UHGV virus genome: UHGV-0125140
Strand: one strand, 5' to 3'
Length of the DNA: 34,135 nt
Origin: a virus
Shown: positions 3,489 to 16,952 of the stretch, in pieces
Position numbering within the stretch: the stretch's first letter is position 1
How the letters are laid out: each line of letters starts with the position of its first letter
The notes under the pieces: model-generated
The model's input: the letters and a program-made list of their open reading frames with translations, nothing else
Databases searched by the model: none
What the model was told of the DNA's origin: nothing
Translations under genes and position numbers: made by a program

Positions 3489-4201
3489 ATGAACAACTTA
3501 GTAATTATGAAAAACCAGCAAGCAGTAACAAGTAGTCTGCAAGTTGCTGAAGTATTCGAAAAACAACATAAGCATGTCATTGAGGCAATAGAAGCTAAAA
3601 TTCAATCGGCCGAAAATTCGGCTCATTACCAAAAAATGTTTGCTGATGGTGAATATAAAGATTCAAGAGGTAGAAAACAAAGATGTATTACATGAATCGT
3701 GATGGTTTTTCTTTTATTGCATTTGGATTCACTGGCAAAAAAGCGGATGCGTTCAAACTGAAATATATTGAGGCTTTTAATCAAATGGAAAAAGAAATTC
3801 AACAGCCTAAACTTCCAACCTCGCAAAGACAATTGGCGATGCTTGCTTTATCAGCAAATGAAGAAACAAATGAGCGTGTAGATGTAATTGAAAAAGAAGT
3901 AGCCGACTTAAAAGACAATCAAAAAATCGGTGCAGATGATTATGGTTACTTATCACGTCGAGTTCATCAACGAGTAGCAGAAGTAGCAAGAGGATTTGGA
4001 AAAATCACAAAGGAACAGCGTGGCAAGCTATACAAAGATATTAATTCAGGTATTAAGCAAATCACGGGCGTGGGTACTCGATCACAATTAAGAGAAAAAC
4101 ATTATCCAATGGTAATTGAATATATCAATGACTGGGAGCCGTCCACAGCCACAAAAACAGTTGTAAGACAAATGAGCTTTGACTTAAACGACATTGCGTA
4201 A
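3489..4201 (+). pseudogene. Rha-family (Phage_pRha) antirepressor, split by a frameshift into ORFs 3489-3695 and 3683-4201
   Basis: The N-terminal piece has the Rha signature (NQQAVTSSLQVAEVFEKQHKHVIEAI ... YKDSRGRKQ). The second piece continues the family (MYYMNRDGFSFIAFGFTGKKADAFKLKYIEAFN) in the +1 frame. Adding one A to the run AGAAAACAAAG at about 3673-3683 would fuse them. Confidence 0.6.
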
Positions 4202-13431: not shown

Positions 13432-13607
13432 GTTATCCAGAAGTTTATATCTTAGGCCGTCAAGTCAATGGCATTTATGTTGAATACCTGAGAAGAACAT
13501 TTTACACATTATCAGATGCTAAACGTAATGCAGATTTTTATAACAAACACTATAGTGGCGAATGGAAAATTTTAAAATACGGTAGACCAATAACGATGGA
13601 GGTGTGA
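13428..13607 (+). CDS. hypothetical protein (59 aa)
   Basis: ATG at 13428 after GGAGG. Confidence 0.35.
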   Translation: MSYPEVYILGRQVNGIYVEYLRRTFYTLSDAKRNADFYNKHYSGEWKILKYGRPITMEV

Positions 13608-13760
13608 CATGGGTAAGAAAAAATCAAAAATTAAAAAGAAAAAGCGTCGCATGCAAGAAAAAGCAATTGCAAACGGCACTCAAAATTCTAAAAAATAAAA
13701 AAAGTCGGAATCGCTCCGACCAACCATATCGATATTATAACATAAAAGGAGCGATTTAAC

Positions 13761-14177
13761 TTGATTCAATTGTTAAAAGAAGTTGATTTCAGTCAGACTA
13801 GAGCCAATGCGAGAGCCGTGTTGAAAAATTTTAGACGTTTGGACCGAATAGCTGGTCGTTCCTTAGTAGATGTTCGATCACCAATCATTACAGACATGCC
13901 CAAAGGTGTAAAGCATGGCAACAAAGCAGAAGATGCGTTGATCCAGATGATTGATGTCGAAGTAGAGCGTGATGCAATCCTAACGGCTTTGATGTCATTA
14001 AGCATAATAAGTCGTCAAATTCTTCACTACAGTTTCTGTGTGCAGGACCATTACTCTAATTACAAAATCGCCAGAGAAGTCGGCTATTCTGAAAGAAGTA
14101 TTCAAAGAATGAAATCAGAAGCTTTGATTGAATTTGCGGAAGCTTACCGAAACGGCAAAATAATTGCATATAAATAA
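13761..14177 (+). CDS. ArpU-family phage late transcriptional regulator
   Basis: 138 aa, TTG start after AAAGGAG. Sequence character matches the ArpU / late-activator family. Positioned as the last early gene before the packaging genes. Confidence 0.75.
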   Translation: MIQLLKEVDFSQTRANARAVLKNFRRLDRIAGRSLVDVRSPIITDMPKGVKHGNKAEDALIQMIDVEVERDAILTALMSLSIISRQILHYSFCVQDHYSNYKIAREVGYSERSIQRMKSEALIEFAEAYRNGKIIAYK

Positions 14178-14180
14178 TTT

Positions 14181-14239
14181 TTGGCGGTTTTTTGGCGGAA
14201 AGTTGGCGGTTTTTATCAATAATTAGTTGTTATTATGAT
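14181..14239 (+). promoter_or_regulatory. three TTGGCGG direct repeats phased at 11 bp (14181, 14192, 14203), followed by -10-like TATGAT (14234-14239): candidate activator-dependent late promoter
   Basis: Exact heptamer repeats spaced one helical turn apart start 4 bp after the ArpU stop. A -10 hexamer follows with no good -35. Confidence 0.45.
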
Positions 14240-14554
14240 AGTGTCGAAAGATAAGGAGACGAGGGTAAGGCATGCATTACCTATCTTAGCTCCGTTTCAC
14301 TTATCTTTTGAGGCTACCTATAAAAAATAAAGAATAAGGATGTGGAAAGTCCAGTTCTTTCTGTCTCGTTTAGTCATAGGTAGCAAATATTGCAATAAAC
14401 TTGGCATGAAGCTTACACGTAGACGTACGCCGAAAGCACTTGTCAAGATAGCGCTATGTAGTTTGCAATGATCACTCACAAATCAGACGTTCTCAAACTA
14501 AAAGAAATGGGGTGTAATTCCTCTCTCTTTTTTCTACAGGTTTGTGAGTGTTAA

Positions 14555-14626
14555 TGGGATATAGCTTAACTGGTAGAGCAGCGGTCTCCAAAACCGTCGG
14601 TATAGGTTCGAGTCCTATTGTTCCAG
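14555..14626 (+). tRNA. trnW: tRNA-Trp (anticodon CCA), no encoded 3' CCA
   Basis: Hand-folded cloverleaf: acceptor TGGGATA/TGTTCCA (two G:U pairs), D arm GCTT-AACTGGTA-GAGC, anticodon arm GCGGT-CTCCAAA-ACCGT, variable loop CGGT, T arm ATAGG-TTCGAGT-CCTAT, discriminator G. Closely parallels my recollection of Bacillus subtilis tRNA-Trp. Confidence 0.8.
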
Positions 14627-14796
14627 TAGGTAGCATAGCTACTTAAATAAAAGAATCGTCAATAAATGTTTCTTACTTTAACGATCGGTTCACCTCCTTT
14701 CAGAATTAGCCAGCCTGCGGAAACAGGATAAAGTGGCTAGCAACCTAGTATTGTTAAATAAGTGTTAGATTGGCTAGGCAGTCTAATATAAATCTT

Positions 14797-14829
14797 TAGA
14801 CTACTCAATAAAAATGAGTGGTCTTTTTT
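14797..14829 (+). terminator. rho-independent terminator (stem AGACTACTC/GAGTGGTCT, then a T7 run)
   Basis: 9-bp stem with one G:U pair, 9-nt loop, TTTTTTT tail. Confidence 0.6.
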
Positions 14830-14841
14830 TGTACATAAAAA

Positions 14842-14867
14842 AGCCACTAGACTATGGGATCTAGTGG
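14842..14867 (-). terminator. perfect 9-bp hairpin GCCACTAGA-N8-TCTAGTGGC preceded by an A-run (terminator-like when read on the minus strand)
   Basis: Inverted repeat visible in the sequence. An A6 run lies 5' on the plus strand, which is a T-run 3' on the minus strand. Confidence 0.4.
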
Positions 14868-14991
14868 CTAGGTAGCATTCGTGCACAATTTTTGTTGATT
14901 GCTATTTACAAAAAGGAGTTGCTACCCATAAATAGTATAGCAAGAAGTGATTTATTGAATCAAGTACATAAAACAGCTAGGAGAGAAAAAT

Positions 14992-15222
14992 ATGAAAAGC
15001 TATTGGTATGTATCGCTAACACATAAATATCCACAGTCGAACCGCTCAACTGTTTCAATGCGTGTTGTAATGTCTGTGCAGATAAAAAAGAATGCATCTA
15101 TTGTCGAAATGGCGAGAGAAGCCACGCCGAAGGAAATTGATGCGTGCAAGCTAGTTTATTGTGGTTATGGTAGTTGGAAAGATAAGCATATACAAGAGAA
15201 TATAGAAATGTATGTGAAGTGA
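14992..15222 (+). CDS. hypothetical protein (76 aa) immediately upstream of terS
   Basis: Good RBS (AGGAGAG, 7 nt spacer). Confidence 0.45.
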   Translation: MKSYWYVSLTHKYPQSNRSTVSMRVVMSVQIKKNASIVEMAREATPKEIDACKLVYCGYGSWKDKHIQENIEMYVK

Positions 15223-15244
15223 TAAATTATTAGACAGAAAGGCG

Positions 15245-15688
15245 GTGAATAACATGCGAATGACCGAGAAACAGAAACGATTTTGTGACTTTTACATCGA
15301 GACAGGAAATGCCAAAGAGGCTGCTATCAGAGCGGGATATAGCGAAAAGACTGCAAAGCAGATAGGACAGGAAAACTTGACTAAACCTGACCTCAGAGCT
15401 TATATAGACGAACGCCTCGCAGAACTGAAAAACGAACGAACAGCCGATGCCCAAGAGGTGCTAGAGTACCTAACAGCTGTTATGCGTGGCGAGTACAAAG
15501 AAGCAACGCTAATTGGTGTAGGCGAAGGCGCACAAGCCGTTGTAGACATCGATGTGGGCGCAAAAGACCGTTTAAAAGCAGCCGAGCTTCTTGGTAAACG
15601 TCATGCGCTGTTCACTGATAAAGTCGATTTACAAACGGGCGATATTGTGATTAAGGTTGGTGAGTGGGATGCAGACGAAGAAACGTAA
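15245..15688 (+). CDS. terS: terminase small subunit
   Basis: MTEKQKRFCDFYIETGNAKEAAIRAGYSEKTAKQIGQENLTKP is the classic P27/Terminase_2 N-terminal HTH. Confidence 0.85.
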   Translation: MNNMRMTEKQKRFCDFYIETGNAKEAAIRAGYSEKTAKQIGQENLTKPDLRAYIDERLAELKNERTADAQEVLEYLTAVMRGEYKEATLIGVGEGAQAVVDIDVGAKDRLKAAELLGKRHALFTDKVDLQTGDIVIKVGEWDADEET

Positions 15689-16952
15689 TATCGTTTTAGA
15701 GTTTAACTTCCCGTCAAGAGTTTTTAACAAATCGTTTTATGATCGATTGGTGGATTATTCTAAATTCACCGAGGTTTATTGGGGCGGCGCTTCATCTGGC
15801 AAAAGTCACGGTGTCGTTCAAAAGGTTGTTTTTAAAGCATGTCAAAGATGGAAGAAACCAAGAAAGATTTTATTTACAAGAAAAGTAGGGCGTAGCTTAA
15901 AAGACTCTATTTTCGAGGATGTGAAAGCGTGTCTTTCTGATTGGGGACTGCTAGATAAGTGTAAAGTAAATAACACTGATTTTAGAATCACGTTACCAAA
16001 CGGCGCAGAGTTTCTTTTCAAGGGAATGGATGACCCAGAGAAAATAAAATCCATCAAAGGGCTGTCTGACGTCGTGATGGAAGAAGCAACAGAATTTACA
16101 CTAGAAGATTATACACAGCTTACTTTGCGTTTACGTGAACGTAAGCATGTGAAACGTCAAATCTTTTTAATGTTTAACCCAGTTTCTAAACTGAACTGGG
16201 TATATAAATCTTTCTTTGATGAGGAAGCAGAAGTCGATCAACGAAGAACGGGTATTTATCACAGCACCTATAAAGACAATCGGTTTCTTGATAGTGAAAA
16301 TAAAAAGGTGATTGAGGATTTAGCCAAACGAAACCCAGCGTATTATCGCATATATGCTTTAGGAGAATTTGCTACGCTAGATAAACTTGTATTTCCAAAC
16401 TATCAGAGAAAACGATTAGACAAGCACGACGAACTGTTAAGACAGATTGATTCAGATTTTGGCTTAGACTTTGGGTATGTAAACGACCCTTCCGCTTTTG
16501 TGCATGCAAAGGTAGACGAGAAGAACAAACGTATTTATGTTCTTGAAGAATACGTCAAAAAAGGCTTGCTGAATGATGAAATCTCAACGGTTATTAAAGA
16601 TTTAGGCTATGCAAAAGAAGTTATCACTGCAGATTCAGCTGAAAAGAAATCTATTGCAGAAATCAAGAAGAACGGAATTACTAGAATACGTGCAGCTAAG
16701 AAAGGCCCTGATTCAATACGACAGGGGCTTTCTTTTTTATTGCAATATGAGCTAATCGTAGACGATCGTTGCGTAAAACTGATTGAGGAATTAGAAAACT
16801 ACACATGGGCTAAAGACAAGAAAACAGGGGAGTACACCAATGAACCTATTGATAGCTATAATCACGTGATAGATGCTTTACGATACGCAGTAGAACATCG
16901 TAGTAAAAAAGCACGAGGAATTAAGCTACAGAGCGTGAAGGGGGTTATTTAA
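15657..16952 (+). CDS. terL: terminase large subunit (PBSX / Terminase_3 family)
   Basis: 431 aa with a Walker A-like GGASSGKS and a C-terminal nuclease region. Overlaps the end of terS. ATG at 15669 is the likely start. Confidence 0.93.
   Translation: MVSGMQTKKRNIVLEFNFPSRVFNKSFYDRLVDYSKFTEVYWGGASSGKSHGVVQKVVFKACQRWKKPRKILFTRKVGRSLKDSIFEDVKACLSDWGLLDKCKVNNTDFRITLPNGAEFLFKGMDDPEKIKSIKGLSDVVMEEATEFTLEDYTQLTLRLRERKHVKRQIFLMFNPVSKLNWVYKSFFDEEAEVDQRRTGIYHSTYKDNRFLDSENKKVIEDLAKRNPAYYRIYALGEFATLDKLVFPNYQRKRLDKHDELLRQIDSDFGLDFGYVNDPSAFVHAKVDEKNKRIYVLEEYVKKGLLNDEISTVIKDLGYAKEVITADSAEKKSIAEIKKNGITRIRAAKKGPDSIRQGLSFLLQYELIVDDRCVKLIEELENYTWAKDKKTGEYTNEPIDSYNHVIDALRYAVEHRSKKARGIKLQSVKGVI

What the first reader, a model, noticed from the sequence alone, without database searches (positions are those of the whole stretch)
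14178..14245. Three TTGGCGG repeats phased at 11 bp directly after the ArpU late-regulator gene: candidate late-promoter activator site
TTGGCGG occurs at 14181, 14192 and 14203, exactly one helical turn apart, so all three sit on one DNA face. They start 4 bp after the ArpU-family gene stop. A TATGAT -10-like hexamer at 14234-14239 follows about 25 bp after the last repeat, with no convincing -35. This is the layout expected for an activator-dependent promoter. Late promoters activated by ArpU/Alt-type regulators in TP901-1-like phages have direct repeats upstream of a -10 element. The repeats are GC-rich against a roughly 36% GC background, and the heptamer occurs only once elsewhere in the window. 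If correct, this is the late promoter, and late transcription would begin with the unusual ~1 kb structured leader.
Basis: partly seen in the sequence, partly recalled or inferred. Interest (0 to 1): 0.6.

Follow-up and report, generated by a model that had tools for sequence, protein, structure and literature searches.

The report
ArpU operator of phage late promoter
The three phased TTGGCGG repeats are the binding site through which this Enterococcus phage's ArpU protein switches on its late (packaging, head, tail, lysis) genes. The same site was shown experimentally in the close relative phiFL2A in 2013, so the finding is real but not new.

Summary
TTGGCGG sits at 14181, 14192 and 14203, starting 4 nt after the TAA stop of an ArpU-family gene. 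It is the only exact 7-mer triple at 10-11 bp spacing in the window, and none arose in 2000 shuffles.

Quiles-Puchalt et al. 2013 showed that three 7-nt repeats just after arpU of phage phiFL2A are required for ArpU-dependent terS expression and bind purified ArpU. The phiFL2A sequence carries the identical box block. Its ArpU has an identical C-terminal 58 residues.

What I add:
- Box sequence co-varies with the ArpU recognition helix across enterococcal prophages.
- A TAnnAT hexamer lies exactly 21 nt after the last box in every array examined. This holds across 18 unrelated spacers and in staphylococcal phage 80alpha (RinA).
- The -10 is therefore TATTAT 14231-14236, preceded by TG. The predicted start is 14243-14246.

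The published phiFL2A "start site", 118 bp before terS, falls 3 nt after a tRNA 3' end. It was mapped with a kit that does not distinguish processed ends, so it is probably a processing site.

Novelty: already known. Interest is low to moderate.

The parts
13761..14177 (+). arpU, the late transcriptional regulator (138 aa). The model shows an N-terminal helix, a disordered linker and a sigma-region-4-like helix-turn-helix domain.
   Evidence: NCBIfam TIGR01637 phage_arpU, 131 bits. 85% identical to phiFL2A ArpU YP_003347324, and 100% identical over the last 58 residues. AlphaFold2 model pLDDT 78.7. Top Foldseek PDB hits are all sigma region 4, with weak E-values of 0.07-1 and target TM-scores of 0.6-0.8.
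14181..14187 (+). ArpU box 1 (TTGGCGG), about -62 to -56 from the predicted start
   Evidence: Identical box in phiFL2A, phiEf11, phiFL1A and phiFL3A.
14192..14198 (+). ArpU box 2 (TTGGCGG), about -51 to -45
14203..14209 (+). ArpU box 3 (TTGGCGG), about -40 to -34. It lies just upstream of where a -35 hexamer would sit.
   Evidence: The last box lies at a fixed 21 nt from the -10 in all arrays examined.
14210..14230 (+). 21-nt spacer. It starts with a T-run, has no -35-like hexamer, and ends in TGT (TG at 14228-14229, an extended -10).
   Evidence: The length is invariant while the sequence is variable, with 18 different spacers. By my count from those listings, TG occupies this position in 11 of 19 spacer families.
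14231..14236 (+). Predicted -10 hexamer TATTAT of the ArpU-dependent late promoter
Evidence: TAnnAT is at this offset in every array, including 80alpha downstream of rinA.
14243..14246 (+). Predicted transcription start (G14243, or G14246 if the +3 register is used)
   Evidence: Inferred from the -10 position. Not measured.
14244..14311 (+). 5'-terminal hairpin of the predicted late transcript. The conserved (G/A)TCGAAAG start pairs with a downstream CTTTTGA.
   Evidence: MFE fold -26.9 kcal/mol. Divergent leaders keep a stem that uses the first transcribed bases. A consensus fold on an alignment failed.
14555..14626 (+). tRNA-Trp (CCA anticodon, no encoded 3' CCA) inside the leader
   Evidence: ARAGORN and Rfam, 65.6 bits. 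Relatives carry other tRNAs in the same slot.
14798..14831 (+). Terminator-like hairpin plus T7 run between the leader and the first late ORF
   Evidence: An analogous hairpin occurs in most related loci and in 80alpha.
14992..15222 (+). 76-aa ORF of unknown function, the first ORF after the leader
   Evidence: no family hit. Also present in L011.
15245..15688 (+). terS, the small terminase subunit and first recognisable late gene
   Evidence: Pfam Terminase_2, E = 1.5e-36
15657..16952 (+). terL, the large terminase subunit
   Evidence: Pfam Terminase_3 and Terminase_3C

Best explanation
The three TTGGCGG heptamers are the operator of the phage's late activator ArpU. [quoted passage not shown] Copies of its sigma-region-4-like C-terminal domain bind the three direct repeats on roughly one face of the DNA, at about -62 to -34. 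From there ArpU recruits host sigma-A RNA polymerase to a promoter with no -35 element. That promoter has an extended -10 (TGtTATTAT, 14228-14236) placed exactly 21 nt after the last box.

Transcription starts at about 14243-14246. It runs through a leader of about 1 kb: a 5' hairpin, tRNA-Trp and a terminator-like hairpin. It then continues into a 76-aa ORF, terS, terL and the rest of the late operon. The leader is cut at the tRNA, which leaves a terS-proximal 5' end.

Status of each step:
- Shown, in phiFL2A with identical boxes: ArpU binding to the boxes, and the need for the boxes for terS expression.
- Shown here by comparison: the boxes and the -10 form one conserved unit, and box sequence tracks the recognition helix.
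- Inferred: the exact start site, the contact with polymerase, one ArpU per box, and processing at the tRNA.
For: 1. Identity with the characterised site. PhiFL2A (L004) has the same TTGGCGG-TTTT-TTGGCGG-AAAG-TTGGCGG-TTTTTAT block directly after arpU. Its ArpU is 100% identical over the last 58 residues.
2. Published experiments. PMC3753634 reports that the three 7-nt repeats are 'absolutely required' for ArpU-dependent terS activation. It also reports that ArpU binding is lost when two or more repeats are mutated.
3. Linkage to arpU. 91 of 107 held sequences with the exact triple have an ArpU homologue ending 2-5 nt upstream.
4. Specificity co-variation.
   - Helix GYSERSIQRMKSEA goes with TGGCGG boxes.
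   - Helix GYGEKNVEKLKS[NI]A goes with TGTAGGG boxes in five loci.
   - Helix GYSVRQIERMKSDA goes with ATGGCGG boxes.
   - All arrays are phased at 11 bp.
5. Fixed promoter geometry.
   - TAnnAT lies exactly 21 nt after the last box in every array examined (about 46 unique sequences), across 18 unrelated spacers.
   - It is often preceded by TGn.
   - The unit stays intact when an extra gene separates it from arpU, as in L109, L111 and L094.
6. Same layout in another family. 80alpha has TTGGCAG-N4-GTGGCAG, then 21 nt, then TATTATGATAGTG after rinA.
7. Precedents for an adjacent start. Phi13 Ltr repeats span -107 to -42 of a start site whose TATA box is essential. TP901-1 Alt repeats span -76 to -32.
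8. Mosaic boundary. Megablast identity to phiEf11, phiFL3A and VEsP-1 ends at 14216, just after box 3. The boxes therefore travel with arpU.
9. No second phased array exists in the window, which fits a single late promoter.
Against: - The only experimental 5' end for an ArpU phage maps 118 bp upstream of terS, about 645 bp from the boxes, not next to them (phiFL2A, 5' RACE).
- For the RinA phages phi11 and 80alpha, the authors mapped the start 23 bp before terS. The 80alpha RNA had been treated to remove monophosphate ends. They argued that RinA acts from more than 155 bp away.
- A strong terminator-like hairpin (14798-14824) lies between the predicted promoter and terS, so read-through has to be assumed.
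- No transcript or binding data exist for this particular phage.
- The sigma-4 fold match has weak E-values.
Confidence: 0.75

Rival explanations
1. Remote activation, as published. ArpU binds the boxes, but the late promoter lies far downstream, just before terS. In this window that would be near the 3' side of the tRNA, around 14627. ArpU would then act over about 450-650 bp by looping or an indirect route.
For: [quoted passage not shown]
- For 80alpha and phi11 the start was mapped 23 bp before terS. The 80alpha RNA had been exonuclease-treated. RinA needed DNA more than 155 bp upstream.
Against: - The phiFL2A end (L004 3622) is 3 nt after the discriminator base of a tRNA-Arg.
- The sequence upstream of it is tRNA T-arm and acceptor stem, with no -10 or -35.
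- The RACE kit used does not separate primary from processed ends.
- An invariant 21-nt distance from the boxes to TAnnAT is unexplained by this model.
- The paper's 59-nt 'repeat region' of 80alpha holds the boxes, spacer, -10 and predicted start. Such blocks from 80alpha and phi55 still drove expression when fused to unrelated phiFL2A intergenic DNA. That is simple if the block is the promoter.
Confidence: 0.12
2. Lambda-Q-like loading site. ArpU bound at the boxes joins RNA polymerase at the adjacent promoter and makes it resistant to the terminator that closes the leader. Late genes would then be controlled mainly by antitermination, alone or together with activation.
For: - The layout is: regulator gene, its site and promoter, a leader, a strong terminator-like hairpin, then the late genes. 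It recurs in most ArpU loci and in 80alpha.
- The paper reports that read-through from an upstream Pcad promoter does not reach terS without the Ltr protein.
- The phiFL2A RACE product spans that phage's terminator hairpin, so the hairpin is read through in vivo.
Against: - No experiment addresses antitermination.
- A strong activated promoter with a leaky terminator explains the same data.
- The promoter lacks a -35, as expected for plain activation.
- ArpU shows no similarity to Q proteins. Its fold matches sigma region 4.
- Some loci (L122, L124) show no terminator before the first ORF.
Confidence: 0.1
3. ArpU is an alternative sigma factor and box 3 is its -35 element.
For: - Weak NCBIfam match to sigma70-ECF region 4 (E = 0.006).
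- Top structural matches are sigma region 4 domains, some bound to -35 DNA.
Against: - The model has only one helix and a disordered linker N-terminal to the sigma-4-like domain. There is no sigma-2 domain to bind core polymerase or melt the -10.
- There are three or more boxes.
- The 21-nt gap to the hexamer is longer than the 16-18 nt spacer of sigma-70-family promoters (established knowledge).
- The hexamer, with its TGn extension, looks like a sigma-A -10.
Confidence: 0.03
4. Chance repeat or a non-regulatory feature, such as a terminator or packaging site.
For: None beyond the T-rich spacers after a stop codon.
Against: - None in 2000 shuffles.
- No hairpin is present.
- The array is conserved with arpU in about 90 contigs.
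- Mutational and binding data exist for phiFL2A.
Confidence: 0.005

Closest known systems
ArpU repeat region of Enterococcus phage phiFL2A (Ltr superfamily, family I; Quiles-Puchalt et al. 2013, PMC3753634)
   Same: The box block is the same through TTTTTAT: three TTGGCGG with TTTT and AAAG spacers. It sits in the same place directly after arpU. The ArpU C-terminal 58 residues are identical. It lies upstream of terS and terL.
   Different: - One extra T lies between the stop codon and box 1.
- The sequence diverges 7 nt after box 3.
- The leader differs: tRNA-Trp instead of tRNA-Arg, no insert of about 400 nt, and an extra 76-aa ORF before terS.
- The paper places the promoter near terS. I place it next to the boxes.
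RinA boxes of Staphylococcus phages 80alpha and phi11 (Ferrer et al. 2011, PMC3152322)
   Same: - Direct 7-nt repeats with a similar core (TGGCAG against TGGCGG), phased at 11 bp, immediately after the regulator gene.
- Exactly 21 nt to TATTATGATAGTG.
- A leader ending in a terminator-like hairpin before terS.
- RinA weakly matches the ArpU model (29.5 bits).
   Different: - Two boxes rather than three.
- A different protein family (TIGR01636).
- A leader of about 90 nt with no tRNA.
- The published start site is 23 bp before terS.
Late promoter PL of Lactococcus phage TP901-1 with activator Alt
   Same: An activator gene lies immediately upstream. The literature reports direct repeats from -76 to -32 of the start (as cited). 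TP901-1 has a TATTAT -10 candidate and a leader of roughly 480-575 nt before terS.
   Different: - Alt gives no ArpU or RinA family hit.
- Box sequences differ; I could see two CACGAAA copies 11 bp apart.
- The distance from those copies to the -10 candidate is 36 nt, not 21.
LtrC and promoter P23 of Staphylococcus phage Phi13 (PMC13123087, 2026)
   Same: [quoted passage not shown] They are required for activity, and the TATA box is required too.
   Different: 18-bp repeats, Ltr family IV, and no sequence relation to ArpU boxes.
PhoB and the pho box of E. coli (from established knowledge; a working analogy only)
   Same: 7-bp direct repeats with 4-bp A/T-rich spacers give 11-bp phasing. They replace the -35 element of a promoter that keeps a good -10. 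The activator contacts the polymerase near sigma region 4.
   Different: PhoB is a winged-helix response regulator and is unrelated to ArpU. The analogy was not tested here.

Membership tests
Ltr superfamily late-promoter control region, ArpU type (Quiles-Puchalt 2013) | [quoted passage not shown] | tested here: met
   TIGR01637, 131 bits against a cutoff of 43. The gene lies between replication-region ORFs and the terminase genes.
Ltr superfamily late-promoter control region, ArpU type (Quiles-Puchalt 2013) | Direct repeats of about 7 nt immediately distal to the regulator's coding sequence | tested here: met
   Three exact TTGGCGG starting 4 nt after the stop codon.
Ltr superfamily late-promoter control region, ArpU type (Quiles-Puchalt 2013) | Same box sequence and same DNA-recognition domain as the experimentally tested pair in phiFL2A | tested here: met
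   Identical box block. The last 58 ArpU residues are identical.
Ltr superfamily late-promoter control region, ArpU type (Quiles-Puchalt 2013) | Located upstream of terS and the morphogenesis and lysis operon, on the same strand | tested here: met
   terS 15245-15688 and terL 15657-16952, both on the + strand.
Ltr superfamily late-promoter control region, ArpU type (Quiles-Puchalt 2013) | Regulator binds the repeats and the repeats are needed for late transcription | not testable with these tools
   Shown for phiFL2A by EMSA and reporter mutagenesis. Supported here only indirectly, by box and recognition-helix co-variation.
Activator-dependent sigma-A promoter with an extended -10 and no -35 | Conserved -10 hexamer at a fixed distance from the activator site, and absence of a -35 match | tested here: met
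   TAnnAT lies 21 nt after the last box in all arrays. No hexamer with 4 or more of 6 matches to TTGACA lies 16-18 nt upstream, and the promoter scan did not call the site.
Activator-dependent sigma-A promoter with an extended -10 and no -35 | A primary (triphosphate) transcript 5' end about 7 nt after the hexamer | not testable with these tools
   No transcript data are held. The only published end in a relative is at the tRNA 3' side.
   Alt (L138 1564-1986) has no ArpU or RinA NCBIfam hit at E <= 0.01. The two proteins were not compared directly. The likeness is in layout only.
Sigma-70 family sigma factor | Both a sigma-2 domain (core binding, -10 recognition) and a sigma-4 domain | tested here: not met
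   Only a sigma-4-like C-terminal domain is seen. The N-terminal part is one helix plus a disordered linker. The sigma70-ECF match covers region 4 only and scores below the cutoff.
Lambda Q-type antitermination module | Regulator renders polymerase resistant to a terminator downstream of its loading promoter | not testable with these tools
   Only the layout is seen: promoter, leader, terminator-like hairpin, late genes.

The most novel reading that the evidence does not exclude
The unit 'boxes, 21 nt, -10, leader, intrinsic terminator' is shared by ArpU phages of enterococci and RinA phages of staphylococci. Two things would follow.

First, the published terS-proximal 'start sites' of Ltr-controlled late operons would be processing products or secondary ends. 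That would solve the long-standing puzzle of Ltr proteins acting from 155-650 bp away.

Second, Ltr proteins might do more than recruit polymerase. Like lambda Q, they might let polymerase that starts at their own promoter pass the leader terminator. That terminator stops early-operon read-through.
Probability: 0.12. Interest if true: 0.7.

Novelty: already known. Interest (0 to 1): 0.3.

Why it matters
The ArpU switch decides when an enterococcal prophage makes terminase, capsids and lysins, and so when it packages and transfers DNA. Recognising the operator allows the late promoter of this phage and about 90 relatives to be annotated by sequence alone.

The box-to-helix pairing gives a simple specificity code that predicts which phages can cross-activate each other:
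- TGGCGG boxes go with the ...ERSIQRMKSEA helix.
- TGTAGGG boxes go with the ...EKNVEKLKS[NI]A helix.

The fixed 21-nt geometry, shared with RinA phage 80alpha, suggests that the accepted picture of Ltr proteins acting far from the start site needs re-testing. None of this changes the fact that the site itself was described in 2013.

Tried and rejected
- **Rfam.** At gathering thresholds, the window and L001-L004 gave only the tRNAs. A permissive scan of 14150-15300 gave only sub-threshold noise. The leader is not a described RNA family.
- **Pfam and PDB sequence searches.** Pfam gave no hit for ArpU. A PDB sequence search gave nothing meaningful.
- **Supplementary Figure S3 of the 2013 paper.** It shows the repeat sequences but is not held as text. 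I therefore identified the phiFL2A repeats from the genome record instead.
- **Consensus folding of the 5' hairpin.** The seven-sequence alignment was too gappy and gave no predicted pairs. Only single-sequence folds support the hairpin.
- **Satellite hypothesis for L011 and L067.** These loci have boxes without an adjacent arpU, so I considered satellites hijacking a helper's ArpU. I rejected this for L011. It carries the full terS, terL and portal set of a phage, with an inserted 204-aa ORF upstream of the boxes.
- **Terminator or packaging signal.** I considered that the array might be a terminator for arpU or a packaging site. No hairpin is present.
- **Literature.** Searches for later ArpU promoter or start-site work found nothing beyond the 2011 and 2013 papers.
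- **More distant ArpU-like loci.** L129, L130 and L132 (33-43% identity) show no phased array in the DNA held. This is uninformative.

Full report
**1. The observation**

The window reads TAA TTT TTGGCGG TTTT TTGGCGG AAAG TTGGCGG TTTTTATC from 14175 onward. The heptamers are at 14181, 14192 and 14203, spaced 11 bp start to start. The ORF ending at 14177 (13761-14177, 138 aa) is an ArpU-family regulator: NCBIfam TIGR01637, 131 bits against a cutoff of 43. Pfam has no model that hits it.

The array is the only exact 7-mer triple at any spacing from 7 to 15 bp in the 34-kb window. No such triple at 10 or 11 bp arose in 2000 dinucleotide-preserving shuffles.

- The heptamer occurs three more times in the window, not once. 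None of these belongs to a phased pair.
- The -10 assignment is 3 nt off (section 5).

**2. Where the window comes from**

The region 13600-14216 is 95-97% identical to Enterococcus faecalis temperate phages VEsP-1, phiEf11, phiFL3A and IME197. It is about 84% identical to phiFL1 and phiFL2. The similarity stops at 14216, which is 7 nt after the third box. The boxes therefore belong to the arpU module of a mosaic genome. PhiEf11, phiFL3A, phiFL1A and phiFL2A all carry the same box block directly after arpU.

**3. This site is already characterised**

Quiles-Puchalt et al. 2013 (PMC3753634) defined the 'late transcriptional regulator' (Ltr) superfamily and used phiFL2A as the ArpU model. Their findings:
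- Replacing the repeats with adenines abolished ArpU-dependent terS::blaZ expression.
- Purified ArpU shifted the fragment.
- Binding survived loss of one repeat but not loss of two or more.
- An arpU deletion abolished phage production.
- ArpU was the only phage protein needed, even in S. aureus.

The protein they used, YP_003347324, is gp33 of L004. The only three 7-nt repeats after that gene are TTGGCGG x3, with the same spacers as in the window. The two ArpU proteins are 85% identical overall and 100% identical over the last 58 residues. The paper assigns repeat recognition to that part of the protein. The finding is therefore a new copy of a known, experimentally proven operator.

**4. 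Comparative support gathered here**

*Linkage to arpU.* A scan of IMG/VR for the exact triple found 103 stretches. Among all 107 held sequences that carry the triple, 91 have an ArpU homologue (63-100% identity) ending 2-5 nt upstream. The remainder are mostly unrelated GC-rich or tandem-repeat sequences.

*Co-variation of helix and box.* A scan of one genome per species with an ArpU alignment gave 28 loci in many Enterococcus species. In these, the box sequence tracks the predicted recognition helix:

| Recognition helix | Box | Loci |
|---|---|---|
| GYSERSIQRMKSEA | (T)TGGCGG | window and close relatives |
| GYGEKNVEKLKS[NI]A | TGTAGGG | L116, L118, L119, L120, L126 |
| GYSVRQIERMKSDA | ATGGCGG, three to five copies | L113, L114, L123 |
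| GYSVRTIEDYKATA | ATGTGG / CTGCGG | L127 |

L131, with HYSVKNIEKLKASA, has TAGGG-type boxes. All arrays keep 11-bp phasing. This is the pattern expected for a cognate protein-site pair.

**5. Where the promoter is**

Anchoring on the last box, a TAnnAT hexamer lies exactly 21 nt downstream in every array examined (about 46 unique sequences). The 21 nt fall into 18 unrelated sequence families. In 11 of 19 families the hexamer is preceded by TGn, the extended -10 motif (my count).

In L109, L111 and L094, an extra gene or 68 nt separates arpU from the boxes. Even there the box, 21 nt and TAnnAT unit is intact. The boxes are therefore tied to the hexamer, not to the stop codon.

In the window this gives TG 14228-14229 and TATTAT 14231-14236. 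In other families that register often lacks the key A at position 2 or T at position 6. Examples are ACTATT, ACTAGT and TATGAA.

No -35-like hexamer lies 16-18 nt upstream, and the generic promoter scan did not call the site. The predicted start is G14243, or G14246 for the +3 register. That puts the boxes at about -62 to -56, -51 to -45 and -40 to -34.

The predicted first bases, (G/A)TCGAAAG, are conserved. In each leader folded alone, they pair with a downstream segment to form a 5'-terminal hairpin. An alignment-based consensus fold failed.

**6. The conflict with the published start site**

The 2013 paper reports one 5' end for phiFL2A, 'a G located 118 bp upstream of the ATG' of terS. 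In L004 the terS ATG is at 3740, so this is G3622, which is indeed a G. Several points suggest it is a processed end:
- A tRNA-Arg occupies 3546/3547 to 3619/3620. The end is therefore 3 nt past the discriminator base.
- The tRNA has no encoded CCA, which makes it the kind of precursor that RNase Z cuts (established knowledge).
- The sequence upstream of G3622 is T-arm and acceptor stem, with nothing promoter-like.
- The RACE used the Roche 5'/3' kit, which does not distinguish primary from processed ends.

I therefore read the end as a processing product of a longer transcript that starts at the boxes. In the window the equivalent point is 14627, right after tRNA-Trp, and the same TAGGTAGCATAGCTAC sequence follows it. 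This is an inference.

The RinA case is harder. Ferrer et al. 2011 mapped the start 23 bp before terS using exonuclease-treated 80alpha RNA. They noted as a puzzle that RinA needs DNA more than 155 bp upstream. Yet 80alpha has, right after rinA, the following layout:
- TTGGCAG-N4-GTGGCAG, then exactly 21 nt, then TATTATGATAGTG. This is the same geometry, and the same 13 bases, as in the window.
- A leader of about 90 nt, then a terminator-like hairpin.
- The published start, and then terS.

The '59-nt block just distal to rinA' that the 2013 paper defines as the repeat-containing region holds the boxes, spacer, hexamer and predicted start. Repeat regions from 80alpha and phi55 still worked when fused to unrelated phiFL2A intergenic DNA. 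That result is simple if the block is the promoter.

Independent precedents place the start next to the repeats. For phage Phi13 the repeats span -107 to -42 and the TATA box is essential. For TP901-1 Alt the repeats span -76 to -32.

**7. The protein**

An AlphaFold2 model built from 26 homologues (pLDDT 78.7) shows helix 10-31, a disordered linker at 34-54, and a four-helix C-terminal domain. The best Foldseek matches in the PDB are all sigma region 4 domains, several bound to -35 DNA. Their E-values are weak (0.07-1) but target TM-scores are 0.6-0.8. NCBIfam also gives a sub-threshold sigma70-ECF region-4 match.

There is no sigma-2-like domain, so ArpU is unlikely to be a full sigma factor. 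The working picture is several sigma-4-like domains bound head to tail on phased direct repeats. The promoter-proximal copy would sit where sigma-A region 4 normally meets the -35. In layout this resembles PhoB at pho boxes, an analogy from memory that I did not test.

**8. The leader and a more speculative reading**

From the predicted start the transcript would contain, in order:
- the 5' hairpin (14244-14311);
- tRNA-Trp (14555-14626);
- a strong terminator-like hairpin with seven T (14798-14831);
- a 76-aa ORF, then terS and terL.

Relatives have different tRNAs in the same slot. Most have a terminator-like hairpin just before the first late ORF. The phiFL2A RACE product spans that phage's hairpin, so the hairpin is read through in vivo. 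The paper also reports that read-through from an upstream Pcad promoter does not reach terS without the regulator.

Regulator gene, own site and promoter, leader, terminator, late genes: this is the layout of lambda Q, PR' and tR'. A strong activated promoter with a leaky terminator explains the data as well. I give the antitermination reading about 10%.

**9. Verdict**

The repeats are real, non-random and functional. The site is already known from phiFL2A, so novelty is 'already known' and interest is modest.

The added value is threefold: a corrected -10, the box-to-helix specificity pairs, and the invariant 21-nt geometry shared with RinA phages. Together these argue that the published terS-proximal start in phiFL2A is a tRNA-processing end.

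Noticed in passing
window 14377-14385, 14627-14635, 14869-14877 (+): The 9-mer TAGGTAGCA occurs three times, on the + strand only, and all three copies are inside the late leader. One copy is the first base after tRNA-Trp and another comes right after the hairpin at 14842-14869. Related leaders carry it at matching offsets (about +132, +382 and +624 from the predicted start). The phiFL2A RACE end falls inside one copy (TA|GGTAGCAT). It may be an RNA-processing or protein-binding signal; it remains unexplained.
   Followed up: partly
window 14555-14626; L001 4303-4375, L004 3546-3620, L112, L114, L115, L127, L131: Related phages carry tRNA genes of different identity in the same slot of the late leader, between the ArpU promoter and the first late ORF. 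The identities seen are Trp, Asn, Arg, Ile, Cys and Lys. The slot looks like a swap site for phage tRNAs expressed with the late genes.
   Followed up: partly
window 14798-14831 (+); L004 3681-3705; L137 about 1338-1365: A strong terminator-like hairpin with a T-run lies between the predicted late promoter and the first late ORF. It occurs in most ArpU loci and in 80alpha. Late transcripts must read through it.
   Followed up: partly
L137 (phage 80alpha) 1224-1275: The RinA phage 80alpha has TTGGCAG-N4-GTGGCAG, then 21 nt, then TATTATGATAGTG right after rinA. This is the same geometry, and the same 13-nt -10 and discriminator string, as in the enterococcal ArpU promoter. The published start site lies about 110 nt further downstream.
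   Followed up: partly
L116, L118, L119, L120, L126, L131 (just after arpU): A second specificity class of enterococcal ArpU has recognition helix ...GEKNVEKLKS... and uses TGTAGGG boxes instead of TGGCGG. It keeps the same 11-bp phasing and the same 21-nt distance to the -10.
   Followed up: yes
L004 3155-3545 and L002 about 3800-4150: PhiFL2A and phiFL3A have an extra non-coding insert of about 400 nt between the conserved leader stem and the tRNA. It has no Rfam match. Its nature is unknown.
   Followed up: no
window 14468-14482 / 14541-14555: A 15-nt inverted repeat ends at the first base of tRNA-Trp. PhiEf11 has the equivalent stem with different bases (TCACTTGCA...TGCAAGTGA against TCACTCACA...TGTGAGTGT), which suggests compensatory change. 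The stem encloses a short hairpin plus T-run.
   Followed up: no
L011 1-700 and L067; L109 and L111 2917-3330: In some prophages an extra ORF sits between arpU and the box-promoter unit, or upstream of that unit. In L011 it is a 204-aa ORF. The unit itself stays intact.
   Followed up: partly
L118 (NZ_JBFBHQ010000083.1, labelled Streptomyces angustmyceticus): A 1.3-kb contig in a Streptomyces assembly encodes an enterococcal-type ArpU with TGTAGGG boxes. This is probably contamination of the assembly. One ArpU homologue (P0026) carries an Escherichia coli label.
   Followed up: no
L138 (TP901-1) 1987-2562: The TP901-1 leader between alt and terS is about 575 nt long. It contains three GGTTCGA/GTTCG T-arm-like motifs and ends in a terminator-like hairpin. 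Its overall layout resembles the enterococcal leaders. Alt itself has no ArpU or RinA family hit.
   Followed up: no
window 13610-13698 and 13699-13721: A very basic 29-aa ORF (MGKKKSKIKKKKRR...) lies just upstream of arpU. It is followed by a hairpin that scores as a terminator only for the minus strand, although no minus-strand gene is evident here. PhiFL2A has a minus-strand gene at the equivalent place.
   Followed up: no
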